A stretch of DNA of 64,000 nucleotides. Origin: Chloroflexota bacterium (GTDB lineage: Bacteria; Chloroflexota; Dehalococcoidia; Lucifugimonadales; UBA3495). The stretch lies in the NCBI GenBank assembly GCA_028874075.1, contig JAPPLU010000087.1, positions 6,738-70,737 on the forward strand. Direction: 5' to 3'. Each line of letters begins with the position of its first letter. Position 1 is the stretch's first letter. Of the stretch, positions 7,879 to 26,681 are shown one piece after another. The notes under the pieces are model-generated. The model did not search any database and was not told where the DNA came from. It worked only from the letters and a program-made list of their open reading frames with translations. Both the position numbers and the translations under genes were made by a program.

Positions 7879-7911
7879 GCGCTCTTGCGTCCTCCGGTTT
7901 GCATGGGATTA

Positions 7912-7988
7912 TCACAATGAGCCGCAGAGAATCAGAGGTGCACAGAGTTCATCTACTTACCTCTGATTCTCCGATTCTCTTTGTGAAA
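7912..7988. repeat. REP-like palindromic element, copy a (between orf139 and carB)
   Basis: Perfect 12-bp stem gagaatcagagg/cctctgattctc, plus outer arms tcacaa..gag/ctctttgtga. Confidence 0.6.
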
Positions 7989-16560: not shown

Positions 16561-17268
16561 ATGCTATTAGAGAATAGAGTGGCGCTAATTACCGGCGCGG
16601 GCCGGGGCATAGGTCGCGCCATCGCCCTGGCCTTCGCCCGGGAAGGGGCGCTCGCCATCGTTACCGGCCGCGACATGGCACGCCTGGCGGAGGTGGTTGA
16701 CCAAGTACGCGCCGGCGGAGGGAAGGCGGAAGCCTTCTCGCTGGACGTAACCAACGACGTTGACGCGTACCACGTTGTAGAGCAGGTTATGGCGAACTGG
16801 GGAACCGTCGACCTCCTGGTCAACAACGCTGGCGTGATCACTTACCATACGCCGGTGTGGGAGACCACTATGGAGCAGTGGGACGAAGTGATGAACACCA
16901 ACCTGCGGGGCATGCATCTCCTCTGCCGGGCAGTAGCGCCCCACATGATAAGCAAAGGGCAAGGAACGATCATCAACATAGGCTCATCGTCCGGCCGCCG
17001 GGCCGAAGGGGAAAACGGGGCTTACGTGGCCTCCAAGTGGGGCGTCATAGGATACACGGCCTCCCTCGCCCAGTCGCTGCGGCCCTACGGCATAAGCGTG
17101 AACGGTATCAATCCTGACTGGGTGGACACCGACATGGCGAGGGCCAGCCATCCCGAAGGAGACTCAGATTGGATAACCCCAGAGGAGGTAGCTGAGGCCG
17201 CTCTGTACCTGGCGACCAAGGCGCCAGGGCTCATGAGCGGGCAGTTTATCGATATGTTTGAGTCCTGA
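16561..17268 (+). CDS. SDR family oxidoreductase (FabG-like)
   Basis: 235-aa ORF. TGAGRGIG, NNAG and YVASK motifs. Confidence 0.92.
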   Translation: MLLENRVALITGAGRGIGRAIALAFAREGALAIVTGRDMARLAEVVDQVRAGGGKAEAFSLDVTNDVDAYHVVEQVMANWGTVDLLVNNAGVITYHTPVWETTMEQWDEVMNTNLRGMHLLCRAVAPHMISKGQGTIINIGSSSGRRAEGENGAYVASKWGVIGYTASLAQSLRPYGISVNGINPDWVDTDMARASHPEGDSDWITPEEVAEAALYLATKAPGLMSGQFIDMFES

Positions 17269-17342
17269 CGGTATGGCGTGTTGAAGTCCGGCAGGCGAGA
17301 TTCCTGGATCCAAGAACGTTAAGAAAGCACCATTCAGGCACC

Positions 17343-17456
17343 ATGGTGAAGAAGTACGACCATATAATCGTCGGAGCGGGTCCCGCCGGCGCGGCCCGTG
17401 CAGCCCCCTTTCGGGAGACTTCCATCGCACTGTCTACTCCCGGAAGCCGGGGCTGA
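17343..17456 (+). pseudogene. Remnant of an FAD-dependent oxidoreductase N-terminus
   Basis: MVKKYDHIIVGAGPAGAARAA... is a Rossmann GxGxxG dinucleotide-binding start, but a stop follows after 37 codons and no continuation is recognisable. Confidence 0.45.
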
Positions 17457-17541
17457 TTCCCGGGGCCAGCGGGGTATGCCCGAGAAAATCAACCACACTA
17501 ATGCAAACCACATGAATCTGAGCGCTACCCCTCGCAACCAT

Positions 17542-18107
17542 CAGGGCAATCGCATTTTGAGTCAGGCAAGAGGGGCGTCCGCCAGAGGCGGATCGCTCAA
17601 GGGAATCGCCGCAGTCTCCAACATGGAGGTTCCCGCCTGCCTTCGGGGCATTCAGTCTGGGGAATTTTTTTATATTCGTCCCATTTTGGGCCGTTTCGGG
17701 CCGTTTCGTATCTGAATCTCAGGTCAGATACGACTCCGGTGGCCCGAAAGTGGGCCACTCCCCAGATAGGAAATGGGTTGGACAAGCGGGCCATTTTGGG
17801 CCGTTCCGGGCCGTTTTGAGCCACTGACTTAAACCAGAGCCGATGACACGCCCTCACTCCGGCACTCTTCCATGGGGAGAGAAGTGATTCAGGCTTGACG
17901 GGACCATGGATAGAAGGCGTCATGGAAGTATGGTAGAGAAGCGTTAACCGGAGAATCAAGAGGCAAGTGTCACCAGGGCAATGGCGTTTTGAGTCCGGCA
18001 AAAGGGGGGCAGTTTTCGCCCAAGGTATAACCCCGCAGTCTCCAGGCTCGAGGTACCAGACTGCGCTAGAACGACGGGCTTTCCCGAATCATAACGCGAT
18101 TGCCCTG
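17542..18107. mobile_element. 566-bp non-coding element with terminal inverted repeats and a 10-bp target-site duplication (MITE-like)
   Basis: Left end cagggcaatcgc (17542-17553) and right end gcgattgccctg (18096-18107) are perfect 12-bp inverted repeats, 19 of 22 when extended. The flanking direct repeat tcgcaaccat sits at 17532-17541 and 18108-18117. No credible ORF inside. Confidence 0.7.
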
Positions 18108-18426
18108 TCGCAACCATCCGTTTACATCAATTTAACAAGGCATTAGAGTAAGGGGACAGCCAAGAGTCGAGGTGAGGGCGTTTTCCCGAAGGTACTTGCT
18201 ACCAGAACTTCGGGTTCTCCGTCGACCCTCGATGGTCTGGGATAGGCAGCCTCCCGAAACTCTTGAAGGCCCCGGAACCGGGCGGCAATTTACTTGGTCA
18301 GCCACGGCGTCCCTGCTGCATTTTCGTTGCTTTTGACTCAGTTTCTGCATTGCGTCGCCATTTAGTTGCAGTTTAATTTACCAGTCGCCCGCCCGGCTCC
18401 CCATCCTGTCCAAGCCTGGTGCAAGA

Positions 18427-19119
18427 ATGAGCGCTACCCACGATTTCTCCGAGTCTTTCTACAAGGAGCACGCCCAGCGTTACGCCGTGGTAAGCCACAA
18501 CTTTATCCAGTCGGTGTATAGCGATGTCTCCCACCCGGGCCTGACCGGAGACATGGCCCTGGTTGACCGCCTCCAGGAGTTGGTTCCCAAGGGCAGCAGG
18601 GGACTAGATGCCGGCTGCGGCGCCGGTGCGCGGGACGTTTTTGACTACTGGCAAAAGGGGTATGACATCTACGGGATAGATGCCGTGGAAGAGAACATTG
18701 AGGAAGCGCGCCGTCTCCACCCGGAAATTGCGGAGAGGGTGTCGGTGGTCGACCTGCGCGAGCCTCTTGCGTCTCTGGATTCCTCTTTCGACTTTGTAAT
18801 GTGCAATGCGGTAATACAGCATATCGAACCGGACATAGCCCTGAACACGACCTTGCCCGAGCTCGCCCGGATTTTGAAGCCGGGCGGTATTCTGCAGCTG
18901 ATGTTCAAGTACGGCAACGGTATCGCCACCATTTACGACAGAGATTACGGAACAGACCGTACTTTCCAGCTCTACGCCGTTGAAGAGGTGATCGACACCC
19001 TGATAGCCCAGGGGTTAAGAGTGATTCCCGAAGATGGAGAAAGGCTAGGAGGGGTCATGTATTTCAAGGACCCCAAGCCTATGGACCACTGCGTGTTTTT
19101 TGCCCGCAAGAACGGGTAA
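18427..19119 (+). CDS. Class I SAM-dependent methyltransferase
   Basis: 230-aa ORF. LDAGCGAGARD motif I and FDFVMCNAVIQH. Confidence 0.85.
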   Translation: MSATHDFSESFYKEHAQRYAVVSHNFIQSVYSDVSHPGLTGDMALVDRLQELVPKGSRGLDAGCGAGARDVFDYWQKGYDIYGIDAVEENIEEARRLHPEIAERVSVVDLREPLASLDSSFDFVMCNAVIQHIEPDIALNTTLPELARILKPGGILQLMFKYGNGIATIYDRDYGTDRTFQLYAVEEVIDTLIAQGLRVIPEDGERLGGVMYFKDPKPMDHCVFFARKNG

Positions 19120-19140
19120 ACGTAGGGTTCCCCTGTCCTG

Positions 19141-20271
19141 TTGAACCAATCTGGCAGCCGGAGGAATGGGGTGACCGGTCCGACAGTTCCCGACGACCTG
19201 CAGGACATTACTCCTTTATGGTTGACCCGTGCTCTCTCCAGCAGCCGGGAACCGGAGGGTGCGTTCGTCACCGGATACACGGTGGAGCCTATCGCCGAAG
19301 GCAAGGGTTACATGAGCAGGCTTTACCGACTGTGGCTGGATTACGATGGGGAGTCCAACAATGCCCCAGACTCCATAATATCGAAACTACCGTCGTCGGA
19401 CCCTTTGCTGAAACTGGTTTATAAACGGCTTGGGCAAAACCTGAGAGAGGTATGTTTCTACCGGGAACTGGCTGGCCACGTCCAGGTGCAGACACCTCGC
19501 TGCTACTACGGCGAGAAAGACCCGGCCACTGGGAACACCATACTGCTGCTGGAGGACATGAACTATGCCCGGCAGGGTGACAGTGTAGCCGGCTGTACCC
19601 AGGAGGAAGTCCGCGCCTGCGTCGAGCAGCTTGCTCGGTTCCAGGCAAAGTGGTGGGATAACCCACGGCTGGACCACCTTGACTGGCTGCCATTGAGGAA
19701 CGACGAAACGGATACCTACGAGGAAATGTATGCGGGAGCCTGGCAGTCCCTCCTGCAGAAGGCCGGCACCGCAATGCCCACCAGGCTGCAAGACCTGGGC
19801 GACCGCCTGGCGCCAAAGGTTCGCGAGATAAAAGCCAGGCTCTCAAAACCGCCAATCACCCTGGTTCACGGGGATTACCGGCTGGACAACTGTTTTTTCT
19901 CGACGGCAGACGGCAGTCAGTCGGTAGTGGTGATGGACTGGGAATTCTGCGGAAGGGGGAGGGGTCCTTATGACGTGGCCACTTTCGTAAACGAGGCATA
20001 TTTGCCCCATGCAAGAAGGCGCGAGGAGATTGGCCTTCTGCGCCAGTACCATTCCCTTCTTGAGGACACTGGCGTTAGCCGATACTCCTTTGAGGAATGC
20101 CTGGATGATTACCGCCTGTCCATGCTGGAACTGTTCGTCTTCTGGATAGTTACCGGGGGCTACTGCAACTACGAGGGACAACGGGAGGGAAAGTACCTTC
20201 GCAATACCCTGATTCGGCTGGACGCGGCCATAGCTGATCTCAATTCCACGGAACTGGTCGCTATGCCCTGA
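19141..20271 (+). CDS. Phosphotransferase (APH / choline-ecdysteroid kinase-like) family protein
   Basis: 376-aa ORF. LVHGDYRLDNCFF catalytic loop and VMDWEF. The start codon is uncertain. Confidence 0.8.
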   Translation: MNQSGSRRNGVTGPTVPDDLQDITPLWLTRALSSSREPEGAFVTGYTVEPIAEGKGYMSRLYRLWLDYDGESNNAPDSIISKLPSSDPLLKLVYKRLGQNLREVCFYRELAGHVQVQTPRCYYGEKDPATGNTILLLEDMNYARQGDSVAGCTQEEVRACVEQLARFQAKWWDNPRLDHLDWLPLRNDETDTYEEMYAGAWQSLLQKAGTAMPTRLQDLGDRLAPKVREIKARLSKPPITLVHGDYRLDNCFFSTADGSQSVVVMDWEFCGRGRGPYDVATFVNEAYLPHARRREEIGLLRQYHSLLEDTGVSRYSFEECLDDYRLSMLELFVFWIVTGGYCNYEGQREGKYLRNTLIRLDAAIADLNSTELVAMP

Positions 20272-20816
20272 ACCAATGCCATGGTGAAATATTTGCCCGG
20301 TAGAGTTGCGCCTGTCTTTCGGCCCGCTGCGCAGATGATTCGCGAGTTACCGTTACGCCGGCAAACTGGGCTGCCAAGAGATTCCAAGGTAGAGCCAGAA
20401 TGGCATTGCTCACCTTGGCTTTGGCCTAGCAGGCCATCGCCGCAGCAAAGATGGCTAACCCGACAATCCAGTCATAGCTACGAAAATCAGTATCCACAAT
20501 CGGACAGGAAGAGGCTCAATTTCAAGACCGGCCTGGATTCAGTAAAGCCACCGGGAAGGCAGGGCGGCCTGAATGAAATCAATGCTCTTCCTCTACAAAC
20601 CTGGTCTTCAACTCTCCATACAGGACACGCCCCTACCCTCTCTGGTGCACATGAGGTTAAGGACAGGTACTTTCACCTTTAATCTCCAGGCGCAGGGATT
20701 CAAAGGCAGGCGTTGATGTATACTCCTACTAAACGGGTGTCGCTCACTACCATCCGTTTTGGAAGATAGTTGCAACCAGGTGTCTCTCATAATCATCCCA
20801 GGGGAAACCAGCCATA

Positions 20817-21968
20817 TTGAATGAAACCAGGGAAACATCCGGCCAGGTCCGCATTGTAGGCATGATAGGTGTCGCCCGTGAGGCGGCGGCCGCATCCGGC
20901 GCAACACTAAGCGTGTTCGGCGGGGGCATTAACCCCGGCGCCGAGGTGCCTGCCGGCGTGGACGGCGACTATATCCTGGAGTTCGCCCGCGTCCACGAGG
21001 ACGCCGGGTTCGACATGGTACTGACCGGCTACTCCTCCAGCACTCCCGACGGCTTCGAGGTGGCCGGATACGCGGCGGCCCACACCACCAACCTGGGCTA
21101 CCTCATCGCCCACCGGCCCGGCTTTGTGGCTCCCACCCTGGCGGCGCGCAAGGCCGCCACCCTCGACCAGCTTACCGGTGGCCGCATCGCCCTTCACATT
21201 ATCTCCGGCGGCAGCGACCTGGAGCAGGAAAGGGACGGCGATTTTCTGGATCACGATGCCCGTTACCGCCGCACCGACGAGTACATGGACATCCTCCGTC
21301 GCGCCTGGACCGCCACTGGTCCCTTCGATTACGAGGGCGAGTTCTACCGGCTGAAGGGGGCCAGCAGCCAGGTGCATTGCTTCCAGCGTCCCCATCTGCC
21401 CCTGTTTTTTGGCGGAGCATCGGACGCAGCCCTGGACGTGGGCAGCCGCCGCGCCGACGTTTTCGCCCTGTGGGGTGAACCCCGCGCCGCCATACGAGAA
21501 CGGGTGGCGGACATCCGCAGCCGAGCTGGAGAATGGGGCCGGAACATAGGGTTCAGCCTGTCGGTGCGGCCCATCCTGGGGGAAACGGAAGCCAGGGCGT
21601 GGGAACGGGCCGAGGCAATTCTGACACGAGTGCAGGACGCAACCAGGGGAAGCATCGTCCCGGGCCAGCCGGCCCGCCTGCAATCGGAAGGTTCGCGGAG
21701 GTTGCTTGAGTTCGCCGCCCAGAGCGATTTGCACGACGAGCGACTGTGGATGCCCGTGGCCGCAGCCAGCGGCGCCGCCGGCAGCACCACCTGCCTGGTG
21801 GGTACCCCACGACAGGTGGCCGAGTCTTTGCTGTCCTACTACGACCTGGGCTGCACCACCTTCATCATCCGGGGCTTCGACCCCCTGAAGGATGCCCGCG
21901 AATACGGCCGGGAACTCATTCACCGGCTGCGGGAAATGGTCGCCGGCCGTTCTTCAACCGTGGTTTAG
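20817..21968 (+). CDS. LLM class flavin-dependent oxidoreductase (SsuD-like)
   Basis: 383-aa ORF. Luciferase-like TIM barrel pattern (GRIALHIISGG, RYRRTDEYMDILRRAW). Confidence 0.9.
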   Translation: MNETRETSGQVRIVGMIGVAREAAAASGATLSVFGGGINPGAEVPAGVDGDYILEFARVHEDAGFDMVLTGYSSSTPDGFEVAGYAAAHTTNLGYLIAHRPGFVAPTLAARKAATLDQLTGGRIALHIISGGSDLEQERDGDFLDHDARYRRTDEYMDILRRAWTATGPFDYEGEFYRLKGASSQVHCFQRPHLPLFFGGASDAALDVGSRRADVFALWGEPRAAIRERVADIRSRAGEWGRNIGFSLSVRPILGETEARAWERAEAILTRVQDATRGSIVPGQPARLQSEGSRRLLEFAAQSDLHDERLWMPVAAASGAAGSTTCLVGTPRQVAESLLSYYDLGCTTFIIRGFDPLKDAREYGRELIHRLREMVAGRSSTVV

Positions 21969-22025
21969 TGGACCGCGCGGCGCCTGCCGGCAGTCCCCAA
22001 ATACTCCAAAGCCTTTACCGAGGCA

Positions 22026-22391
22026 TTAATCCAAAGCAACCACGATGTAATAACGGGGTTCGTCGCTGATAACCCGCGTAATGTGGCCCTGGCCCGTCAG
22101 GTCCTCCGCCAGCAGCACGTCGCCGGGACCCACTTCCCGCTTGGTGCCGTCACCCACCTCCACTTCGGCCCGGCCCGACAGGGTGATGGTGTACTGGCGG
22201 CGGGGAGCGCAGTGCCACTCCAGCAGGTAGCCGGGCTGGGCGATGCGGATGGTCATTCCGTTGGCCCCCTCCATGGGTGTGCCCTCACCGTAGGCGCCCT
22301 CCGTATCAACGAAGGACTGGAAAGGCGGGTTCAGGTCTTCCAGGTGAGACTGTCCGTCGGGACCGGTATAGCAGCGTACGAAGTTAGGCAT
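22026..22391 (-). CDS. Cupin domain protein
   Basis: 121-aa ORF. Small beta-barrel pattern with G.L.EWH....Y....G.AEVEVGDG. Confidence 0.7.
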   Translation of the reverse strand: MPNFVRCYTGPDGQSHLEDLNPPFQSFVDTEGAYGEGTPMEGANGMTIRIAQPGYLLEWHCAPRRQYTITLSGRAEVEVGDGTKREVGPGDVLLAEDLTGQGHITRVISDEPRYYIVVALD

Positions 22392-22556
22392 GGTAGCTCC
22401 TTGTTATTGAATCGTCCTGGGTTACGATGCCCCTATTCTCTATAGGCTTGGCGGCAACGTCAAGGATTACCGGAGATAACTGAGATAGGCGCCTGGCCCG
22501 AAACTGGCAGAAAAACGGCATAGCAATTCGAGCCTCTGTCTAACCTGAATGACCGG

Positions 22557-22565
22557 GTGCTAGAA
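22557..22565 (+). promoter_or_regulatory. Candidate extended -10 promoter (TGcTAGAAT) for fdhA
   Basis: TGnTAnAAT motif 65 nt upstream of the fdhA start. The same motif type occurs at 29753 and 40056. Confidence 0.35.
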
Positions 22566-22629
22566 TATGCGGTAAGAATACCCTGGTTTTCCAAATCAAT
22601 CGGGCAGAAGGGCTGGGGGTGCCGCAGCC

Positions 22630-25479
22630 ATGTCCATCTCCCTGACCGTTAATGGCAAGCAGGTTCAGTTAGCGGAAGGCGGGTCCGTGCTGGACGCCGT
22701 CAACGCCTCCAACACCTACCTGTCGCAGCTTTGCAAGGACCCGGACATGAAGGCCATCGGGGCCTGCCGTACCTGCCTGGTGCAGATCGAGGGTGTGCGT
22801 GGCTTCCCCGCCTCCTGTTCCGTCCCCGCCGCCGACGGCATGGTGGTGCAGACCGACACGCCGGAGGTTGAACGCATCCGGTCCGGCGTCCTGGAACTAA
22901 CCCTGGCCATGCTGCCGTCGGAGGCCCCGGTCCGGGCCGCCGTACCATCCCCCATCCGGGGCGAGGGCGAGTACGGGCAGTTGACCCGGGCCGCCCAACA
23001 TTACGGCATTGACGGCTCCCGCTGGCGATCCCGATCCCGGGAGGAAACGGACGCCAGCAACCCGGTCTTCACCATCGGCATGGAGTCCTGCATCCTCTGC
23101 GCCCGCTGCGTCAATGCCTGCCAGGAAGAGCACCAGTTCATCGGCGCCATTGATTTCATCGGGGCCGGGGAAGGCGGCCGCATCGGAACTTTTATGGACA
23201 AGCCCCTGGCAGACTCCATCTGCACCACCTGCGGCCAGTGCCTGTCCGTCTGTCCCACCGGAGCCATCCAGGCCAAGGCAACCATCGCGGAGTCTTTAGC
23301 CAGCACCCCCATCCTGACCTTCCCCCAGCACGGGGGAAGGGACTTGCGGGAAGCGCCGGAGGTCGGAGTCGAGAAAACGGTCTCCACCACCTGCCCCTAC
23401 TGCGGCGTGGGCTGCGGAATCAAAATGCAGGTCGGCGGCGCTGACGAAATCGTGGCGGTGGAGGATGACCCGGACAACCTCTCCAGCGTGGGTATGCTTT
23501 GTGTCAAGGGACGGTTCGGCGCTTCCTTCGTCCACCACCCTGACCGGCTGACCACGCCGCTGATTCGTGAAAATGGCGAATTCCGGGAAGCCACCTGGGA
23601 CGAGGCCCTGGACCTGATTGCCGACCGGCTGGTCAACTACCGGGACGACGACTTCGGCACTCTTTGCTCGGCCAAGGCCACCAACGAGGACGGGTACATC
23701 CAGCAGAAGTTCGCCCGACTACTGATGCAGACCAACAACATCGACCACTGCACCCGCCTGTGCCACTCGCCGTCGGTGGAGGCCATGCTGGCCACCCTCG
23801 GCAGCGGCGCAACCAGCAACTCCTACACCGACTACGAGAACGCCGGCTGCCTGGTGGTCATCGGCTGCGACCCCACCTCCAACCACCCGGTGGCGGCCTC
23901 CCGGATGCGCCGGGCTGTGGTGGAACGAGGCGCAAAGCTCATAGTCATCAACCCCCGTCGCATTGACATGTGCGACTACGCCGACCTGTGGCTCCGCCCC
24001 CACCCGGGCACCGACGTGGCCCTGCTCAACGGTATGGCCTGGGTTATCCTGGACGAAGGACTGGTGGACGAGGAATTCGTCGCCAACCGCACCGAGGACT
24101 ACGAGCAGTGGGCCCGGGTCGTTCAAGACTACCCACCGGAACGGGTGGAGGAGATTACCGGCGTTCCCTCCGAAGACCTGAAGCAGGCGGCGCGCCTGTA
24201 CGCCCAGCCGCCCTTCCCGGCCCGCTACGTGTTCGGCGATGAGGATAAGCCCTACGCCGGTTCCTGCCTAATCTGGGGCATGGGCATTACCCAGCACGTC
24301 AACGGCACGCCCAACGCCCACGGCCTGTTGAACCTGGCCCTGGTTACGGGCCAACTGGGCCGTCCCGGAAGCGGAGTGTCCCCCCTGCGAGGCCAGAACA
24401 ACGTCCAGGGCTGCGGCGACGCCGGCTGCATCCCCGACAACCTGCCCGGCTACCAGGGCTACCGCCCCGAGGTCCTGGCCCGCTTCGAGGCGGCGTGGGG
24501 CGGCCAGCCCCTGCCCGGCATTCGCGGCCTGGTCATTACCCAGATCGTCCAGTCCATCGGCCAGGACCACGGCGTCCGGGCGATGTACATCACCGGGGAG
24601 AATCCCCTGCTCAGCGAGCCAGACCTGAACGAGGCCGCCGAACTGTTCAAGAGCCTGGAGTTCCTGGTAGTGCAGGACATCTTCATGCACGAGACGGCGC
24701 AGATTGCCGACGTGGTGCTGCCGGCCACCAGCTTTGCCGAGAAGGACGGCACCTTCACCAACAGCGAGCGGCGGGTGCAGCGGATCCGCAAGGCAGTGGA
24801 ACCCCGGGGCCAAAGCAGACCCGACTGGGAGATAGTCTGCGACCTGGGCCGCCGCATGTGCCGCATGTTGGGCCTCCCCCTGGAAGACCAGTTCACCTAC
24901 GACCACCCCTCGGAGATATTCGATGAAATGGCGCGGCTGACTCCCATCCTGTCGGGCATCAGCTACGACCGCCTCGATCGGGAGGGCGGCATTCAGTGGC
25001 CGTGCCCCGAACCCGATCACCCGGGCACTCCCTACCTGTACGCCGATTCATTCCCCCGGGGGCCACGGGCCCGGTTCATTGGCTACCAACAGGGGCCGCT
25101 GTCGGACGAGCGGCCCAGCCGCCGCTACCCGCTGATCCTGAATACGGGCCGCGTCCTCTACCACTGGCACGGCGGCACCATGACCCGCCGGGTGTCGGGC
25201 CTGCTGACCCGGGCGCCCGACCTAGAGGTCTCCATCAACCCCTCTGACGGCGACAAATACGGCATCGCTGACGGGCAGACCGTTCGCGTCTCCTCCCGCC
25301 GGGGCGAACTGACCGGCAAGGCCCTTTTCACCGACCGGATGCGGACGGGGGAGATTTTTATTCCTTTCGTCAAGCTGTCGGAGTCGGCGGCCAACTTCCT
25401 TACGAACTCGGCCTACGACCCGGATACCATGATCCCCGAGTACAAGGTATGCGCAGTGCGGGTGGAAGCGGCGGAGTAG
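22630..25479 (+). CDS. fdhA: Formate dehydrogenase alpha subunit (molybdopterin), with N-terminal 2Fe-2S and 4Fe-4S domains; Cys-type
   Basis: 949-aa ORF. CRTCLV, CILCARCVNAC, CTTCGQCLSVCP and TTCPYCGVGC clusters. The active-site region is IDHCTRLCHSPSV, with TGC at 23761-23763. Confidence 0.92.
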   Translation: MSISLTVNGKQVQLAEGGSVLDAVNASNTYLSQLCKDPDMKAIGACRTCLVQIEGVRGFPASCSVPAADGMVVQTDTPEVERIRSGVLELTLAMLPSEAPVRAAVPSPIRGEGEYGQLTRAAQHYGIDGSRWRSRSREETDASNPVFTIGMESCILCARCVNACQEEHQFIGAIDFIGAGEGGRIGTFMDKPLADSICTTCGQCLSVCPTGAIQAKATIAESLASTPILTFPQHGGRDLREAPEVGVEKTVSTTCPYCGVGCGIKMQVGGADEIVAVEDDPDNLSSVGMLCVKGRFGASFVHHPDRLTTPLIRENGEFREATWDEALDLIADRLVNYRDDDFGTLCSAKATNEDGYIQQKFARLLMQTNNIDHCTRLCHSPSVEAMLATLGSGATSNSYTDYENAGCLVVIGCDPTSNHPVAASRMRRAVVERGAKLIVINPRRIDMCDYADLWLRPHPGTDVALLNGMAWVILDEGLVDEEFVANRTEDYEQWARVVQDYPPERVEEITGVPSEDLKQAARLYAQPPFPARYVFGDEDKPYAGSCLIWGMGITQHVNGTPNAHGLLNLALVTGQLGRPGSGVSPLRGQNNVQGCGDAGCIPDNLPGYQGYRPEVLARFEAAWGGQPLPGIRGLVITQIVQSIGQDHGVRAMYITGENPLLSEPDLNEAAELFKSLEFLVVQDIFMHETAQIADVVLPATSFAEKDGTFTNSERRVQRIRKAVEPRGQSRPDWEIVCDLGRRMCRMLGLPLEDQFTYDHPSEIFDEMARLTPILSGISYDRLDREGGIQWPCPEPDHPGTPYLYADSFPRGPRARFIGYQQGPLSDERPSRRYPLILNTGRVLYHWHGGTMTRRVSGLLTRAPDLEVSINPSDGDKYGIADGQTVRVSSRRGELTGKALFTDRMRTGEIFIPFVKLSESAANFLTNSAYDPDTMIPEYKVCAVRVEAAE

Positions 25480-25486
25480 GGGCACC

Positions 25487-25882
25487 TTGGATTTCTTCGT
25501 CGCCTATCACGCCGCCGACCAGGATTCGGCCGAGTGGGTCGGTCAGCGCCTGCAGGATGAGGGCTATTCCGTTGAACTGCAGTCGTACGACTACTGGGCC
25601 CGCTCCAGCATGATCCTGGAGATGTTCGCCGTCTCCGCCATAGCCGATGCTACCATCGCCCTGCTTTCCCCCTACTTCCTGGCCGAAAACCTGGACCGGC
25701 CCGAATGGCAGGCCGCCTACGCCCAGGACCCCGCCGGAACCCAGGGAATCCTGCTGCCCGTGCGGGTGCGGGAGTGTGACGTGGAAGAGGCGCTGCCGGG
25801 GGTGCGTTTCGTTGACCTGGTAGGGCTGGGGGAAGAAGAGGCACGGGAGGCCCTGTTGGAGGGGATCAGGGAGAGGAGTTAG
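25487..25882 (+). CDS. Standalone TIR domain protein (131 aa)
   Basis: TTG start 7 nt after the fdhA stop. DFFVAYHAADQDSAEWVGQRLQDEGYSVELQSYDY...IALLSPYFLAENLDRPEWQAA...LLPVRVRECD follows the bacterial TIR_2 pattern. Confidence 0.72.
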   Translation: MDFFVAYHAADQDSAEWVGQRLQDEGYSVELQSYDYWARSSMILEMFAVSAIADATIALLSPYFLAENLDRPEWQAAYAQDPAGTQGILLPVRVRECDVEEALPGVRFVDLVGLGEEEAREALLEGIRERS

Positions 25883-25921
25883 CTCGAACTGACGAGGATT
25901 AATTCTTACGTTGAAGCGGTG

Positions 25922-25993
25922 TTTCACAAAGAGACGCAGGGATAAGGAAGTTCACAGAGATTCTCTAGCACGCCTCTGCGTCTCTTTGTGAAA
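25922..25993. repeat. REP-like palindromic element, copy c (perfect 18-bp arms)
   Basis: tttcacaaagagacgcag (25922-25939) pairs with ctgcgtctctttgtgaaa (25976-25993) across a 36-nt spacer. Located between convergent genes. Confidence 0.75.
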
Positions 25994-26012
25994 TAAGCCT
26001 GTCTGCTGGCAG

Positions 26013-26681
26013 TTATCCCTCTTCCTCTTCCTTCGCCAGGCGTATCCCCAGGGTTATCAGCCATATTACGTAGACGATGTACATACCGCGGGCCACGGTG
26101 GTTGCCGAATCCATGGCGTCGGAATTGAAGATGGCCACGAGCCATTCAGCCATTCCAACCAGACCGGCCAGGGCTGCCAGCCAAGTCAGGATTGTGAACG
26201 CCATTCCCCGGGTGTCGATAAGGACGCTGAAGGCAAACAACACGATACCCAGGCTTACTGCGACCCCGCCGGTCAATAGCAGGGAGGTGCGGATAGCGTA
26301 GATGGCCATCCAGGCTTCTTGCGGCGGGTAGGTGCTGGCCAGTGTAATGACCAGCGACTGCACCACTAACCAGGCAATTACGCCGATGGAGATCAACGCC
26401 AGGCCAGCCATGTTCAGGCCATCGCCGCGACTGCCCCGGTGCGCGACATGCACCTCGTAGATGCCGAAAGCCATGAGGGCCAATCCCAACATAATTAAGC
26501 CGGACGTTATTTTGACCATGACGGCGTTGGCCTGCCAGACTCCAATGAGGCCGAGGGCGTCGGACCCCGGCGTAGAATCTATCAACAGGCCGCCGGGCTG
26601 AATCAGGAACATGATGAACGCCAGGGTGGGCCCGACCACCAAGGATATAGCTCCGAGCTTGTTGGTGGACAGCAGGTTCAT
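26013..26681 (-). CDS. Hypothetical integral membrane protein (about 6 TM)
   Basis: 222-aa ORF with regularly spaced hydrophobic helices. No family recognised. Confidence 0.7.
   Translation of the reverse strand: MNLLSTNKLGAISLVVGPTLAFIMFLIQPGGLLIDSTPGSDALGLIGVWQANAVMVKITSGLIMLGLALMAFGIYEVHVAHRGSRGDGLNMAGLALISIGVIAWLVVQSLVITLASTYPPQEAWMAIYAIRTSLLLTGGVAVSLGIVLFAFSVLIDTRGMAFTILTWLAALAGLVGMAEWLVAIFNSDAMDSATTVARGMYIVYVIWLITLGIRLAKEEEEG

What the first reader, a model, noticed from the sequence alone, without database searches (positions are those of the whole stretch)
25487..25882. Minimal standalone TIR-domain protein coupled to the 3' end of formate dehydrogenase
A 131-aa ORF (TTG at 25487, 7 nt after the fdhA stop, GGAG upstream) reads DFFVAYHAADQDSAEWVGQRLQDEGYSVELQSYDY...TIALLSPYFLAENLDRPEWQAAYA...ILLPVRVRECD. 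This follows the bacterial TIR_2 pattern (D-F-F-[IV]-S/A-Y ... LSP.Y..S...EW ... PVR). It keeps a Glu-Trp (E73-W74) where TIR NADases carry the catalytic Glu.

This TIR type is usually the N-terminal module of large STAND/NB-ARC/TPR proteins or part of defence operons. Here it is alone, with no sensor or effector partner. It is apparently co-transcribed with a metabolic enzyme and is followed by a perfect REP hairpin.

It could be a truncated remnant, a free NAD-cleaving or signalling module, or one part of a split system whose partner lies elsewhere.
Basis: partly seen in the sequence, partly recalled or inferred. Interest (0 to 1): 0.65.

Follow-up and report, generated by a model that had tools for sequence, protein, structure and literature searches.

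The report
Domesticated standalone TIR protein, sponge symbionts
A small immune-type (TIR) protein encoded just after a formate dehydrogenase gene is a real gene conserved in one lineage of sponge-associated Chloroflexota; it is a freed and remodelled piece of a large defence-type sensor protein, and it is kept even in genomes that have lost the dehydrogenase.

Summary
Window 25487-25882 (+) encodes a complete 131-aa TIR_2 domain (69 bits; AF2 pLDDT 92; Foldseek hits are TIR domains). It starts 7 nt after the fdhA stop.

It is not a decaying fragment. More than 100 homologue clusters and 23 species-level genomes, all Dehalococcoidia/SAR202-type MAGs with sponge samples where checked, keep the same ~131-135 aa gene. 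dN/dS is 0.19 and dS matches the neighbouring genes.

The family is monophyletic on a long stem. It sits inside the N-terminal TIR modules of TIR-NB-ARC-TPR and other conflict proteins, and it ends exactly where their linker begins.

The catalytic Glu (E73) is invariant, but three residues that mutational studies tie to strong or cyclising NADase activity are replaced:
- box-1 Ser -> Ala/Thr
- BB-loop Gly -> Arg/Asn
- aromatic at E-4 -> Leu

The link to fdhA concerns expression, not function. There is a conserved 6-8 nt spacer, an SD inside fdhA's last codons and mostly TTG/GTG starts. Five genomes lost fdhA and one holds an in-frame remnant, yet all keep the TIR gene.

The most likely role is an attenuated, non-cyclising NAD-type glycohydrolase or a TIR-TIR regulator. 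No partner was found within 10 kb.

The parts
25487..25882 (+). Gene for a 131-aa standalone TIR-domain protein (TTG start; complete betaA-alphaE TIR fold)
   Evidence: ORF; TIR_2, 69 bits, profile 1-121/122; AF2 pLDDT 92.2, pTM 0.87; Foldseek top hits all TIR domains; AbTir-3AD TM 0.71; 108 homologues of the same length; dN/dS 0.19
25703..25708 (+). Codons for E73-W74: Glu at the catalytic position of TIR NADases, followed by Trp
   Evidence: Invariant E73 and 46/47 W74 in the family; E 152/153 and W 153/153 in outgroup TIR modules; aligns with the Glu of BtTir 'NWteyEl', which is catalytic E230
25502..25504 (+). Codon for A6: the box-1 position that is Ser in canonical TIRs (SARM1 S567 / AbTIR S140 equivalent), here Ala
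   Evidence: Family A 27 / T 20 / S 0; outgroup S 153/153. This Ser H-bonds the catalytic Glu, and S->A lowers activity (bioRxiv 10.1101/2025.04.09.647920)
25586..25609 (+). Remodelled BB-loop (box 2): Y34-D-Y-W-A-R-S-S41, replacing the outgroup's W-D-F-R-P-G-S-N
   Evidence: W37 47/47, A38 46/47, R/N39 45/47 in the family, against R, P, G (148/153) in the outgroup. R39 aligns with the BtTir/AbTir BB-loop Gly. AbTir G174A has no or very low activity. Lowest model confidence is here (pLDDT 80-82)
25691..25693 (+). Codon for L69: the position four residues before the catalytic Glu (AbTir W204 equivalent), here Leu
   Evidence: Family L 47/47; outgroup F 87 / Y 60. An aromatic at this position is conserved in all cyclic-ADPR-producing TIRs, and W204A cuts cyclisation
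25473..25486 (+). fdhA-TIR junction: SD-like GGAG inside fdhA's last codons, TAG stop, 7-nt spacer
   Evidence: The junction is conserved in related loci: mostly a 6-8 nt spacer (a few loci have 16-75 nt), GGAG kept, and start codon TTG 12 / GTG 2 / ATG 4 of 18 fdhA-linked loci, against ATG 5/5 in fdhA-less loci. No promoter-like site in 25000-26100
22630..25479 (+). fdhA (949 aa; NuoG-like N-terminus with 2Fe-2S and 4Fe-4S, then molybdopterin domains): upstream cistron and likely expression platform for the TIR gene
   Evidence: TIGR01591, 763 bits. Directly upstream of the TIR gene in 17 related loci. Absent in 5 and an in-frame remnant in 1
25922..25993 (.). REP-like hairpin (18-nt perfect arms, 36-nt loop) between the convergent TIR and orf222 genes. 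It is a boundary or terminator candidate, not part of the conserved unit
   Evidence: The same element is found only in L006; other loci carry unrelated hairpins

Best explanation
SHOWN. The ORF is a genuine, selectively maintained gene for a compact TIR-only protein. It belongs to a single-origin family confined to one lineage of sponge-associated Dehalococcoidia/SAR202 Chloroflexota. The family arose when the N-terminal TIR effector module of a TIR-STAND (NB-ARC/TPR-type) conflict protein was freed from its NTPase and sensor part. The protein stops exactly where those proteins continue into their linker. A burst of change on the stem branch then replaced three residues while keeping the catalytic-position Glu (E73) and most of the pocket: the box-1 Ser beside the catalytic Glu became Ala/Thr, the BB-loop Arg-Pro-Gly became Trp-Ala-Arg/Asn, and the aromatic four residues before the Glu became Leu. 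Since then the gene has been inherited vertically in a syntenic metabolic block.

INFERRED (expression). It is expressed as the second cistron of an fdhA-TIR transcript by translational coupling, through an SD inside fdhA's last codons, a 6-8 nt spacer and a weak TTG/GTG start. That would give low, FDH-linked expression. Where fdhA was deleted, the TIR gene was kept and uses ATG. So its function does not require formate dehydrogenase.

INFERRED (mechanism, about 0.4). It is an attenuated enzyme that is independent of STAND-driven assembly. It would hydrolyse NAD(P)+ or an NAD-derived substrate such as the NAD cap of RNA to ADP-ribose-type products and would not make cyclic-ADPR signals. That would make it tolerable as a constitutive cytoplasmic protein serving a housekeeping or symbiosis-related role, not abortive infection.
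For: Gene and fold.

Conservation: 108 clusters of the same length; 30 invariant positions including E73; dN/dS 0.19, with dS 0.86 equal to the neighbours'.

Distribution: 23 genomes, all Dehalococcoidia/SAR202/Chloroflexota; sponge metagenome runs for both a close and a distant member.

Origin:
- A profile search of 1.84 billion representatives gives one representative for the family (245 bits). Next come TIR modules of 169-1342 aa proteins, 124 of 153 of them N-terminal.
- Their architectures are NB-ARC, TPR, AAA_16, nSTAND5, tandem TIR, EAD1 and bDLD1.
- The family is monophyletic at 100/100 with a stem of 1.16 substitutions per site.
- No NB-ARC/TPR remnant lies next to the gene in any locus.

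Remodelled residues. The literature says these positions matter.

Expression coupling.

Independence from FDH: L022, L023, L025, L026 and L027 lack fdhA. L028 holds a 358-aa in-frame fdhA remnant without the catalytic domain. L027 keeps only a 3'-end remnant.

Not a catalogued defence TIR: no PADLOC hit, and it sits in a syntenic core block rather than a variable island.

NAD-RNA cap removal by TIR proteins is documented (PMC10937652, abstract).
Against: - There is no biochemical or transcript evidence. The RNA searches gave only runs of unknown kind with DNA-like flat depth.
- The three substitutions resemble loss-of-activity mutations in AbTir, SARM1 and plant TIRs, so the protein may have no catalysis at all.
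- E73 could be kept for structural reasons, since the PEW motif is shared with the outgroup.
- A distant partner gene cannot be excluded.
- The start-codon contrast (14/18 against 0/5 non-ATG) is not corrected for phylogeny.
- The dN/dS estimate covers only the first ~112 residues.
Confidence: 0.6

Rival explanations
1. Catalytically silent TIR-TIR adaptor or regulator. The freed module has lost NADase competence and acts by binding other TIR domains. For example, it could cap or restrain TIR-STAND paralogues of the same subtype in the cell, in the way of a decoy or chain terminator.
For: All three activity-linked residues are replaced family-wide. The BB-loop, which mediates head-to-tail TIR assembly, is the most remodelled segment yet is invariant within the family (W37, Y36, A38), as expected for a new, selected interface. 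The domain is still about 55-60% identical to TIR-STAND modules, and proteins of that class occur in Chloroflexota.
Against: E73, W74, D35 and Y7 remain invariant. No TIR-STAND gene was found in the window or within 10 kb in 23 loci. Whether these genomes hold any TIR-STAND could not be tested.
Confidence: 0.25
2. Host-directed TIR mimic. It would be a symbiosis factor that interferes with sponge TLR/MyD88/SARM-type TIR signalling, as the TIR proteins TcpB/BtpA and TcpC do in animal hosts.
For: The family was seen only in sponge-associated lineages and samples. The best Foldseek E-value is to TcpB/BtpA. The BB-loop, the classic TIR-TIR contact, is remodelled. TIR domains are listed among eukaryote-like domains of sponge symbionts (PMC7848895).
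Against: No signal peptide or secretion-system gene is evident in the sequence or in the neighbourhood. Fold similarity is about equal for all TIR classes (TM 0.6-0.7). The sponge restriction may simply reflect the host lineage's habitat. Weak start codons and operon coupling to a metabolic gene are not typical of effectors.
Confidence: 0.1
3. Accessory subunit or NAD+-handling partner of the NAD-linked formate dehydrogenase, sitting in an FdsD-like position after fdsA.
For: It lies directly after fdhA, with translational-coupling signals, in 17 related loci. The FDH is of the NuoG-like type and has NuoE/NuoF-like genes nearby in relatives. TIR domains bind NAD+.
Against: The TIR gene is retained intact under the same constraint in five genomes without fdhA or NuoE/F in the block, and beside a catalytically dead fdhA remnant. 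In L026 it sits next to a Na+/H+ exchanger. It has no NCBIfam FDH-accessory match. Its nearest relatives are conflict-system TIRs.
Confidence: 0.04
4. Decaying remnant or spurious ORF: the severed 5' end of a degraded STAND gene, or an artefact of a GC-rich frame.
For: It is of domain-only length and ends at the domain boundary of longer relatives. A 175-aa antisense ORF overlaps it.
Against: There are 108 intact homologue clusters of the same length and dN/dS is 0.19. No frameshifted or longer orthologue and no NB-ARC/TPR remnant was found in 23 loci. The fold prediction is confident and full-length.
Confidence: 0.01

Closest known systems
N-terminal TIR modules of bacterial/archaeal TIR-NB-ARC-TPR STAND proteins (many labelled by NCBI as 'FxSxx-COOH system tetratricopeptide repeat protein') and related TIR-AAA_16, tandem-TIR and EAD1/bDLD1-TIR conflict proteins
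   Same: About 55-60% identity over the whole domain. Shared motifs are DFF.xY, WAEW, Q.xD, LSP.(Y/F)L, PEW.AA.AQDP and PVRVReC. The domain boundaries are the same.
   Different: It has no NTPase or repeat domain and is only 131 aa. The box-1 Ser, the BB-loop R-P-G and the aromatic at E-4 are replaced. It is monophyletic on a long stem and inherited vertically in a metabolic block, rather than being patchy or horizontally spread.
Bacterial TIR NADases AbTir, BtTir and TcpB/BtpA (solved structures 7uxu, 7uxr, 4c7m)
   Same: The TIR fold (TM 0.62-0.71). The Glu is at the catalytic position, aligning with BtTir E230 and AbTir E208.
   Different: Sequence similarity is only marginal (E=0.4-0.7; 16-18% identity). 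It lacks their WxxxE Trp, BB-loop Gly and box-1 Ser, which are needed for their activity or cyclisation. It has no coiled-coil or other extra domain.
Thoeris ThsB and other catalogued anti-phage TIR proteins (PADLOC models)
   Same: A small TIR-domain protein without a fused sensor.
   Different: It has no PADLOC match. No ThsA-type (SIR2/SLOG/Macro) or other partner lies within 10 kb in 23 loci. It sits in a core syntenic context, and the aromatic needed for cyclic-ADPR signal production is absent.
Conserved TIR-only proteins of plants (a small group conserved between dicots and monocots; bioRxiv 10.64898/2026.06.07.730676)
   Same: By analogy only: a TIR-only lineage related to receptor-fused TIRs that is conserved over long times, while its receptor-fused relatives turn over.
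   Different: The plant proteins are active NADases that signal through EDS1. Here no downstream pathway is known and activity-linked residues are altered. The origin is independent.

Membership tests
TIR domain superfamily (Pfam TIR_2, PF13676) | Significant full-length match to the family HMM | tested here: met
   69 bits against a cutoff of 28, E=6.7e-19, profile 1-121/122
TIR domain superfamily (Pfam TIR_2, PF13676) | Flavodoxin-like fold with five parallel strands (betaA-betaE) and five helices | tested here: met
   AF2 pLDDT 92.2 with all elements present. The 25 best Foldseek PDB hits are all TIR domains
Enzymatic TIR NADases (SARM1 / AbTir / plant TIR type) | Catalytic glutamate in the alphaC region | tested here: met
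   E73 is invariant and aligns with BtTir E230
Enzymatic TIR NADases (SARM1 / AbTir / plant TIR type) | Conserved box-1 serine hydrogen-bonded to the catalytic Glu (SARM1 S567, AbTIR S140) | tested here: not met
   Ala 27 / Thr 20 / Ser 0 in the family; Ser 153/153 in the outgroup. Role of the Ser:
Enzymatic TIR NADases (SARM1 / AbTir / plant TIR type) | Intact BB-loop with its Gly (AbTir G174), needed for the BE-interface composite active site | tested here: not met
   R/N at the aligned position. AbTir G174A has no or very low activity
Enzymatic TIR NADases (SARM1 / AbTir / plant TIR type) | NAD+ cleavage activity dependent on the Glu | not testable with these tools
   Needs an enzyme assay
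Cyclic-ADPR-producing TIRs (ThsB, AbTir, plant TIR signal generators) | Aromatic residue four positions before the catalytic Glu (AbTir W204) | tested here: not met
   Leu 47/47; the outgroup has Phe/Tyr. Requirement:
TIR-STAND (TIR-NB-ARC-TPR) proteins | TIR domain of this sequence subtype | tested here: met
   The nearest relatives by profile search are these modules, at 140-160 bits per domain
TIR-STAND (TIR-NB-ARC-TPR) proteins | STAND NTPase plus repeat sensor in the same polypeptide | tested here: not met
   The protein is 131 aa and ends at the linker. A convergent gene lies downstream, and no NB-ARC/TPR remnant is found in 23 loci
Thoeris / catalogued TIR defence systems | Match to a defence-system TIR model and an adjacent effector gene (e.g. 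ThsA) | tested here: not met
   No PADLOC hit at E<=1. The neighbours are FdhA, cupin, glyoxalase, LLM and an unknown orf222
Formate dehydrogenase accessory proteins (FdsD/FdhD/FdhE-like) | Obligate co-occurrence with fdhA and a family-model match | tested here: not met
   The TIR gene is kept in 5 fdhA-less loci and beside one dead remnant. There is no NCBIfam hit
Bacterial host-directed TIR effectors (TcpB/BtpA, TcpC type) | Delivery to, and action on, host TIR signalling | not testable with these tools
   Only fold similarity (TM 0.62) and a sponge habitat. No secretion signal is evident by eye

The most novel reading that the evidence does not exclude
A conflict-system TIR effector module was domesticated into a core-genome protein of sponge-associated SAR202 bacteria and given a new biochemical role. 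Candidate roles are a low-level NAD(P)+ or NAD-RNA-cap glycohydrolase whose dose is set by translational coupling to an NAD-linked formate dehydrogenase, or a remodelled-BB-loop TIR that engages host or paralogous TIR domains. Either would be the first bacterial TIR shown to have moved from immunity to housekeeping or symbiosis.
Probability: 0.2. Interest if true: 0.7.

Novelty: new variant of a known kind. Interest (0 to 1): 0.48.

Why it matters
Bacterial TIR domains are known almost only as patchily distributed effectors of anti-phage or virulence systems, switched on by a fused or neighbouring sensor. Here one such module has been cut loose and rewired at exactly the residues that control activity and product. 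It has then been kept under purifying selection as a vertically inherited gene in a metabolic block of sponge symbionts.

This offers a natural experiment on how a dangerous NAD-consuming domain is tamed. It also gives a compact 131-aa test case for what the box-1 Ser, the BB-loop Gly and the E-4 aromatic contribute. It is a candidate symbiosis-linked TIR as well.

For annotation, it shows that 'TIR next to fdhA' is an expression arrangement and not an FDH subunit.

Tried and rejected
So there was no genome-wide search for TIR-STAND, SLOG or Macro partners, for a second FDH, or for a phylogenetic profile.
- PADLOC and NCBIfam scans of the TIR protein found no hits.
- Sequence search of the PDB with the single protein and with the family profile gave only a marginal BtTir match. 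Fold search was needed.
- Transcript evidence could not be obtained. The one run offered for 'rna' is of unknown kind. Its short contigs do bridge the fdhA/TIR junction, but the run also holds 100-kb contigs. Runs for L025 show flat, DNA-like depth.
- The Rfam scan of 21900-26100 found nothing. The promoter and terminator scans found no promoter-like site in 25000-26100 and nothing convincing upstream of fdhA.
- The search for NB-ARC/TPR remnants found only a generic TPR gene 7 kb away in one locus.
- L026 neighbours: a Na+/H+ exchanger, and the rest have no Pfam match.
- Literature: no paper combines TIR domain with SAR202. Papers on sponge symbionts mention TIR domains only in passing.
- Earlier-notes look-ups found no TIR or STAND notes for this genome and no look-alike elsewhere.
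- FDH-accessory and pseudogene readings were rejected (see the rival explanations).

Full report
OBSERVATION. The ORF exists as described. It runs 25487-25882 (+), starts with TTG and codes 131 aa. It begins 7 nt after the TAG stop of a 949-aa ORF (22630-25479), and GGAG at 25473-25476 lies inside that ORF's last codons. The upstream protein is formate dehydrogenase alpha (TIGR01591, 763 bits against a cutoff of 666). Its N-terminus is NuoG-like, with 2Fe-2S and 4Fe-4S domains. The small protein matches Pfam TIR_2 end to end (69 bits, E=6.7e-19, profile 1-121/122). It has no PADLOC or NCBIfam match. An AlphaFold2 model built from a 47-sequence family alignment is confident (pLDDT 92.2, pTM 0.87). 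It shows the full betaA-alphaE TIR fold, with the lowest confidence (80-82) in the BB-loop/alphaB segment. The 25 best Foldseek PDB matches are all TIR domains: TcpB/BtpA, TLR10, SARM1, BtTir, and AbTir bound to 3AD with TM 0.71. The downstream hairpin is real, with 18-nt perfect arms at 25922-25993.

A CONSERVED FAMILY, NOT A REMNANT. The word-indexed protein search found 108 clusters at 56-95% identity, almost all 131-140 aa long. Where a source names them, they are Chloroflexi. Alignment of 47 members shows 30 invariant positions, including E73, and a nearly fixed core: ELQS(Y/W)DYW...LEMFAVSA...LLSP.F..L..PEW.AAYAQDP. Only the C-terminal ~30 residues vary. A scan of species-representative genomes returned 23 loci. 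All are Dehalococcoidia, SAR202 or Chloroflexota MAGs. Public runs holding the window, and runs holding a distant member (L025), are sponge or coral-reef metagenomes or coded host organisms. Pairwise dN/dS of the TIR gene (first ~112 codons) is 0.19. The neighbours give 0.14 (fdhA), 0.10 (LLM1), 0.065 (cupin), 0.17 (glyoxalase) and 0.18 (orf222). All have similar dS of 0.75-0.96, which indicates purifying selection and co-inheritance with the block. No second TIR copy occurs in the window or within 10 kb in any locus.

ORIGIN. A profile search against 1.84 billion cluster representatives found 6042 relatives, 563 of them at E<=1e-30. The whole standalone family collapses to one representative (245 bits). 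Everything next in rank is a TIR module of a larger protein of 169-1342 aa; none is 160 aa or shorter. Of 153 such modules, 124 are N-terminal. Their partner domains are NB-ARC, TPR, AAA_16/22, nSTAND5, VMAP, EAD1, bDLD1 and PNP_UDP_1, or a second TIR. A further search with a full-length TIR-NB-ARC-TPR member found 2452 such proteins. Named examples come from Acidobacteria, Chloroflexota, Tectomicrobia and methanogenic archaea, and many are labelled 'FxSxx-COOH system TPR protein'. These modules are about 55-60% identical to the window protein over the whole domain. The window protein ends ('GIRERS*') where they continue into their linker ('GVSRERAKP...'). In a maximum-likelihood tree the standalone family is monophyletic (100/100) on a stem of 1.16 substitutions per site. 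No NB-ARC/TPR remnant lies beside the gene anywhere. So the 'truncation' is ancient and happened once, and it was followed by rapid change and then stasis.

WHAT CHANGED. Compared with the 153 outgroup modules, the family keeps F4, Y7, D11, Q32, D35, S61, E73, W74, D81, P82 and C97. It has fixed the following differences:

| Position | Outgroup | Family |
|---|---|---|
| 6 (box-1) | Ser 153/153 | Ala 27 / Thr 20, never Ser |
| 37-39 (BB-loop) | Arg-Pro-Gly (Gly 148/153) | Trp (47/47)-Ala (46/47)-Arg/Asn |
| 69 | Phe/Tyr | Leu 47/47 |
| 47 | Gln | Phe |
| 30 | Val/Ile | Glu |

The HMMER alignment to BtTir places E73 on the Glu of its WxxxE motif, L69 on the Trp, and R39 on the BB-loop Gly. The literature in the held library gives the meaning of these positions:
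- BtTir E230 and AbTir E208 are the catalytic Glu.
- AbTir G174A and S176A (BB-loop) have no or very low activity, and 'an intact BB loop is required'.
- An aromatic at the W204 position is conserved in all TIRs that make cyclic ADPR products, and W204A cuts cyclisation. These three points come from bioRxiv 10.1101/2022.05.07.491051.
- The box-1 Ser (SARM1 S567, AbTIR S140) sits 2.6-2.7 A from the catalytic Glu. Phosphomimetic changes abolish activity and S->A changes reduce it (bioRxiv 10.1101/2025.04.09.647920).

The family therefore retains the catalytic residue but carries three changes. In characterised TIRs, each one weakens NADase activity or abolishes cyclisation.

RELATION TO fdhA. 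Mapping the window's neighbours onto all loci shows a conserved block: [NuoE-like, NuoF-like], LLM1, cupin(-), FdhA, TIR, orf222(-), glyoxalase(-), LLM2(-). fdhA sits directly upstream of the TIR gene in 17 related loci. In most of these the spacer is 6-8 nt (a few have 16-75 nt). GGAG is kept in fdhA's last codons. The TIR start is TTG in 12, GTG in 2 and ATG in 4 of the 18 fdhA-linked cases, counting the window and L028. This pattern, together with the absence of any promoter-like site, supports co-transcription and translational coupling at a low level. That step is inferred, because no usable RNA data were found.

The link is not functional dependence. L022, L023, L025 and L027 keep LLM1 and cupin(-) upstream of the TIR gene but have no fdhA or NuoE/F genes; three of the four also keep glyoxalase(-) downstream. 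L027 still shows about 30 nt of fdhA's 3' end. L026 has the gene beside a Na+/H+ exchanger. L028 carries an in-frame 358-aa fdhA remnant (residues 1-100 joined to 685-949, with no Fe4S4 or molybdopterin domain) that still ends 6 nt before an intact TIR gene. All five fdhA-less loci use ATG. fdhA-bearing members lie on both sides of the basal split of the family tree, so fdhA was lost at least two or three times while the TIR gene was kept.

MECHANISM. Shown:
- It is a real, constrained, single-domain TIR protein derived from a TIR-STAND effector module.
- It is retained independently of the fdhA gene next to it.
- It has no adjacent partner.

Inferred:
- It is expressed as the second cistron of fdhA at low level.
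- My preferred reading (about 0.4) is an attenuated, non-cyclising glycohydrolase acting on NAD(P)+ or an NAD-derived substrate. TIR proteins can also remove nicotinamide from NAD-capped RNA (PMC10937652). Its activity would no longer need STAND-driven assembly, and it is tolerated constitutively.
- The main rival (about 0.25) is a catalytically silent TIR-TIR regulator or decoy.
- A host-directed mimic in the sponge is possible (about 0.1), but no export signal is evident.
- The FDH-accessory and pseudogene readings are essentially excluded.

COMPARISON AND NOVELTY. The protein is a member of the TIR superfamily and of the TIR-STAND TIR subtype by sequence. It fails the defining features of TIR-STAND proteins (no NTPase or sensor), of catalogued defence TIRs (no model match, no partner, core context), and of canonical or cyclising TIR NADases (Ser, Gly and aromatic all replaced). 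The nearest analogy is the small group of conserved plant TIR-only proteins, which arose independently. No paper in the library links TIR domains to SAR202. I class it as a new variant of a known kind, of moderate interest.

Distant partners, extra FDHs and the exact taxonomic spread could therefore not be tested. There is no direct evidence of expression or activity.

Noticed in passing
L028:8918-9994: An in-frame 358-aa fdhA remnant. It joins the N-terminal 2Fe-2S part to the C-terminal molybdopterin-binding part and has no catalytic domain. It remains an open frame ending 6 nt before the intact TIR gene, and may be retained as the promoter and translation platform for the TIR gene.
   Followed up: partly
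window 25922-25993 and 7910-7988; L006:10436-10515: A REP-like palindromic element with TTTCACAAAGAGACGCAG arms. It is perfect beside the TIR gene and degenerate at 7.9 kb. The same element occurs at the same site only in the closest relative, while other genomes have unrelated hairpins there.
   Followed up: partly
window 16561-20682 versus L001/L008-L016 upstream regions: The window and L006 lack the NuoE-like and NuoF-like genes that precede LLM1 in most relatives. An SDR, a methyltransferase, an EcKL/APH-type kinase and an unknown 133-aa ORF sit there instead. The FdhA here has no diaphorase partner within 64 kb.
   Followed up: partly
window 22026-22391 (-): This 121-aa cupin gene, divergent from fdhA, is the most conserved gene of the block (87-99% identity, dN/dS 0.065). 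It stays next to the TIR gene in four of the five fdhA-less loci (not L026).
   Followed up: no
window 26013-26681 (-): A 222-aa ORF convergent with the TIR gene. It is conserved in 12 or more related loci and has no Pfam match. It is absent from the fdhA-less loci.
   Followed up: no
L021:17356-20391: A large TPR-repeat ORF (>=1012 aa, running off the locus) lies 7 kb downstream of the TIR gene, in this one locus only. Its similarity to TIR-STAND TPR arrays is generic (24-30% identity).
   Followed up: partly
window 25400-25927 (-): A 175-aa antisense ORF overlaps the whole TIR gene. It is most likely a GC-rich frame artefact, given the plus-frame HMM match and dN/dS.
   Followed up: no
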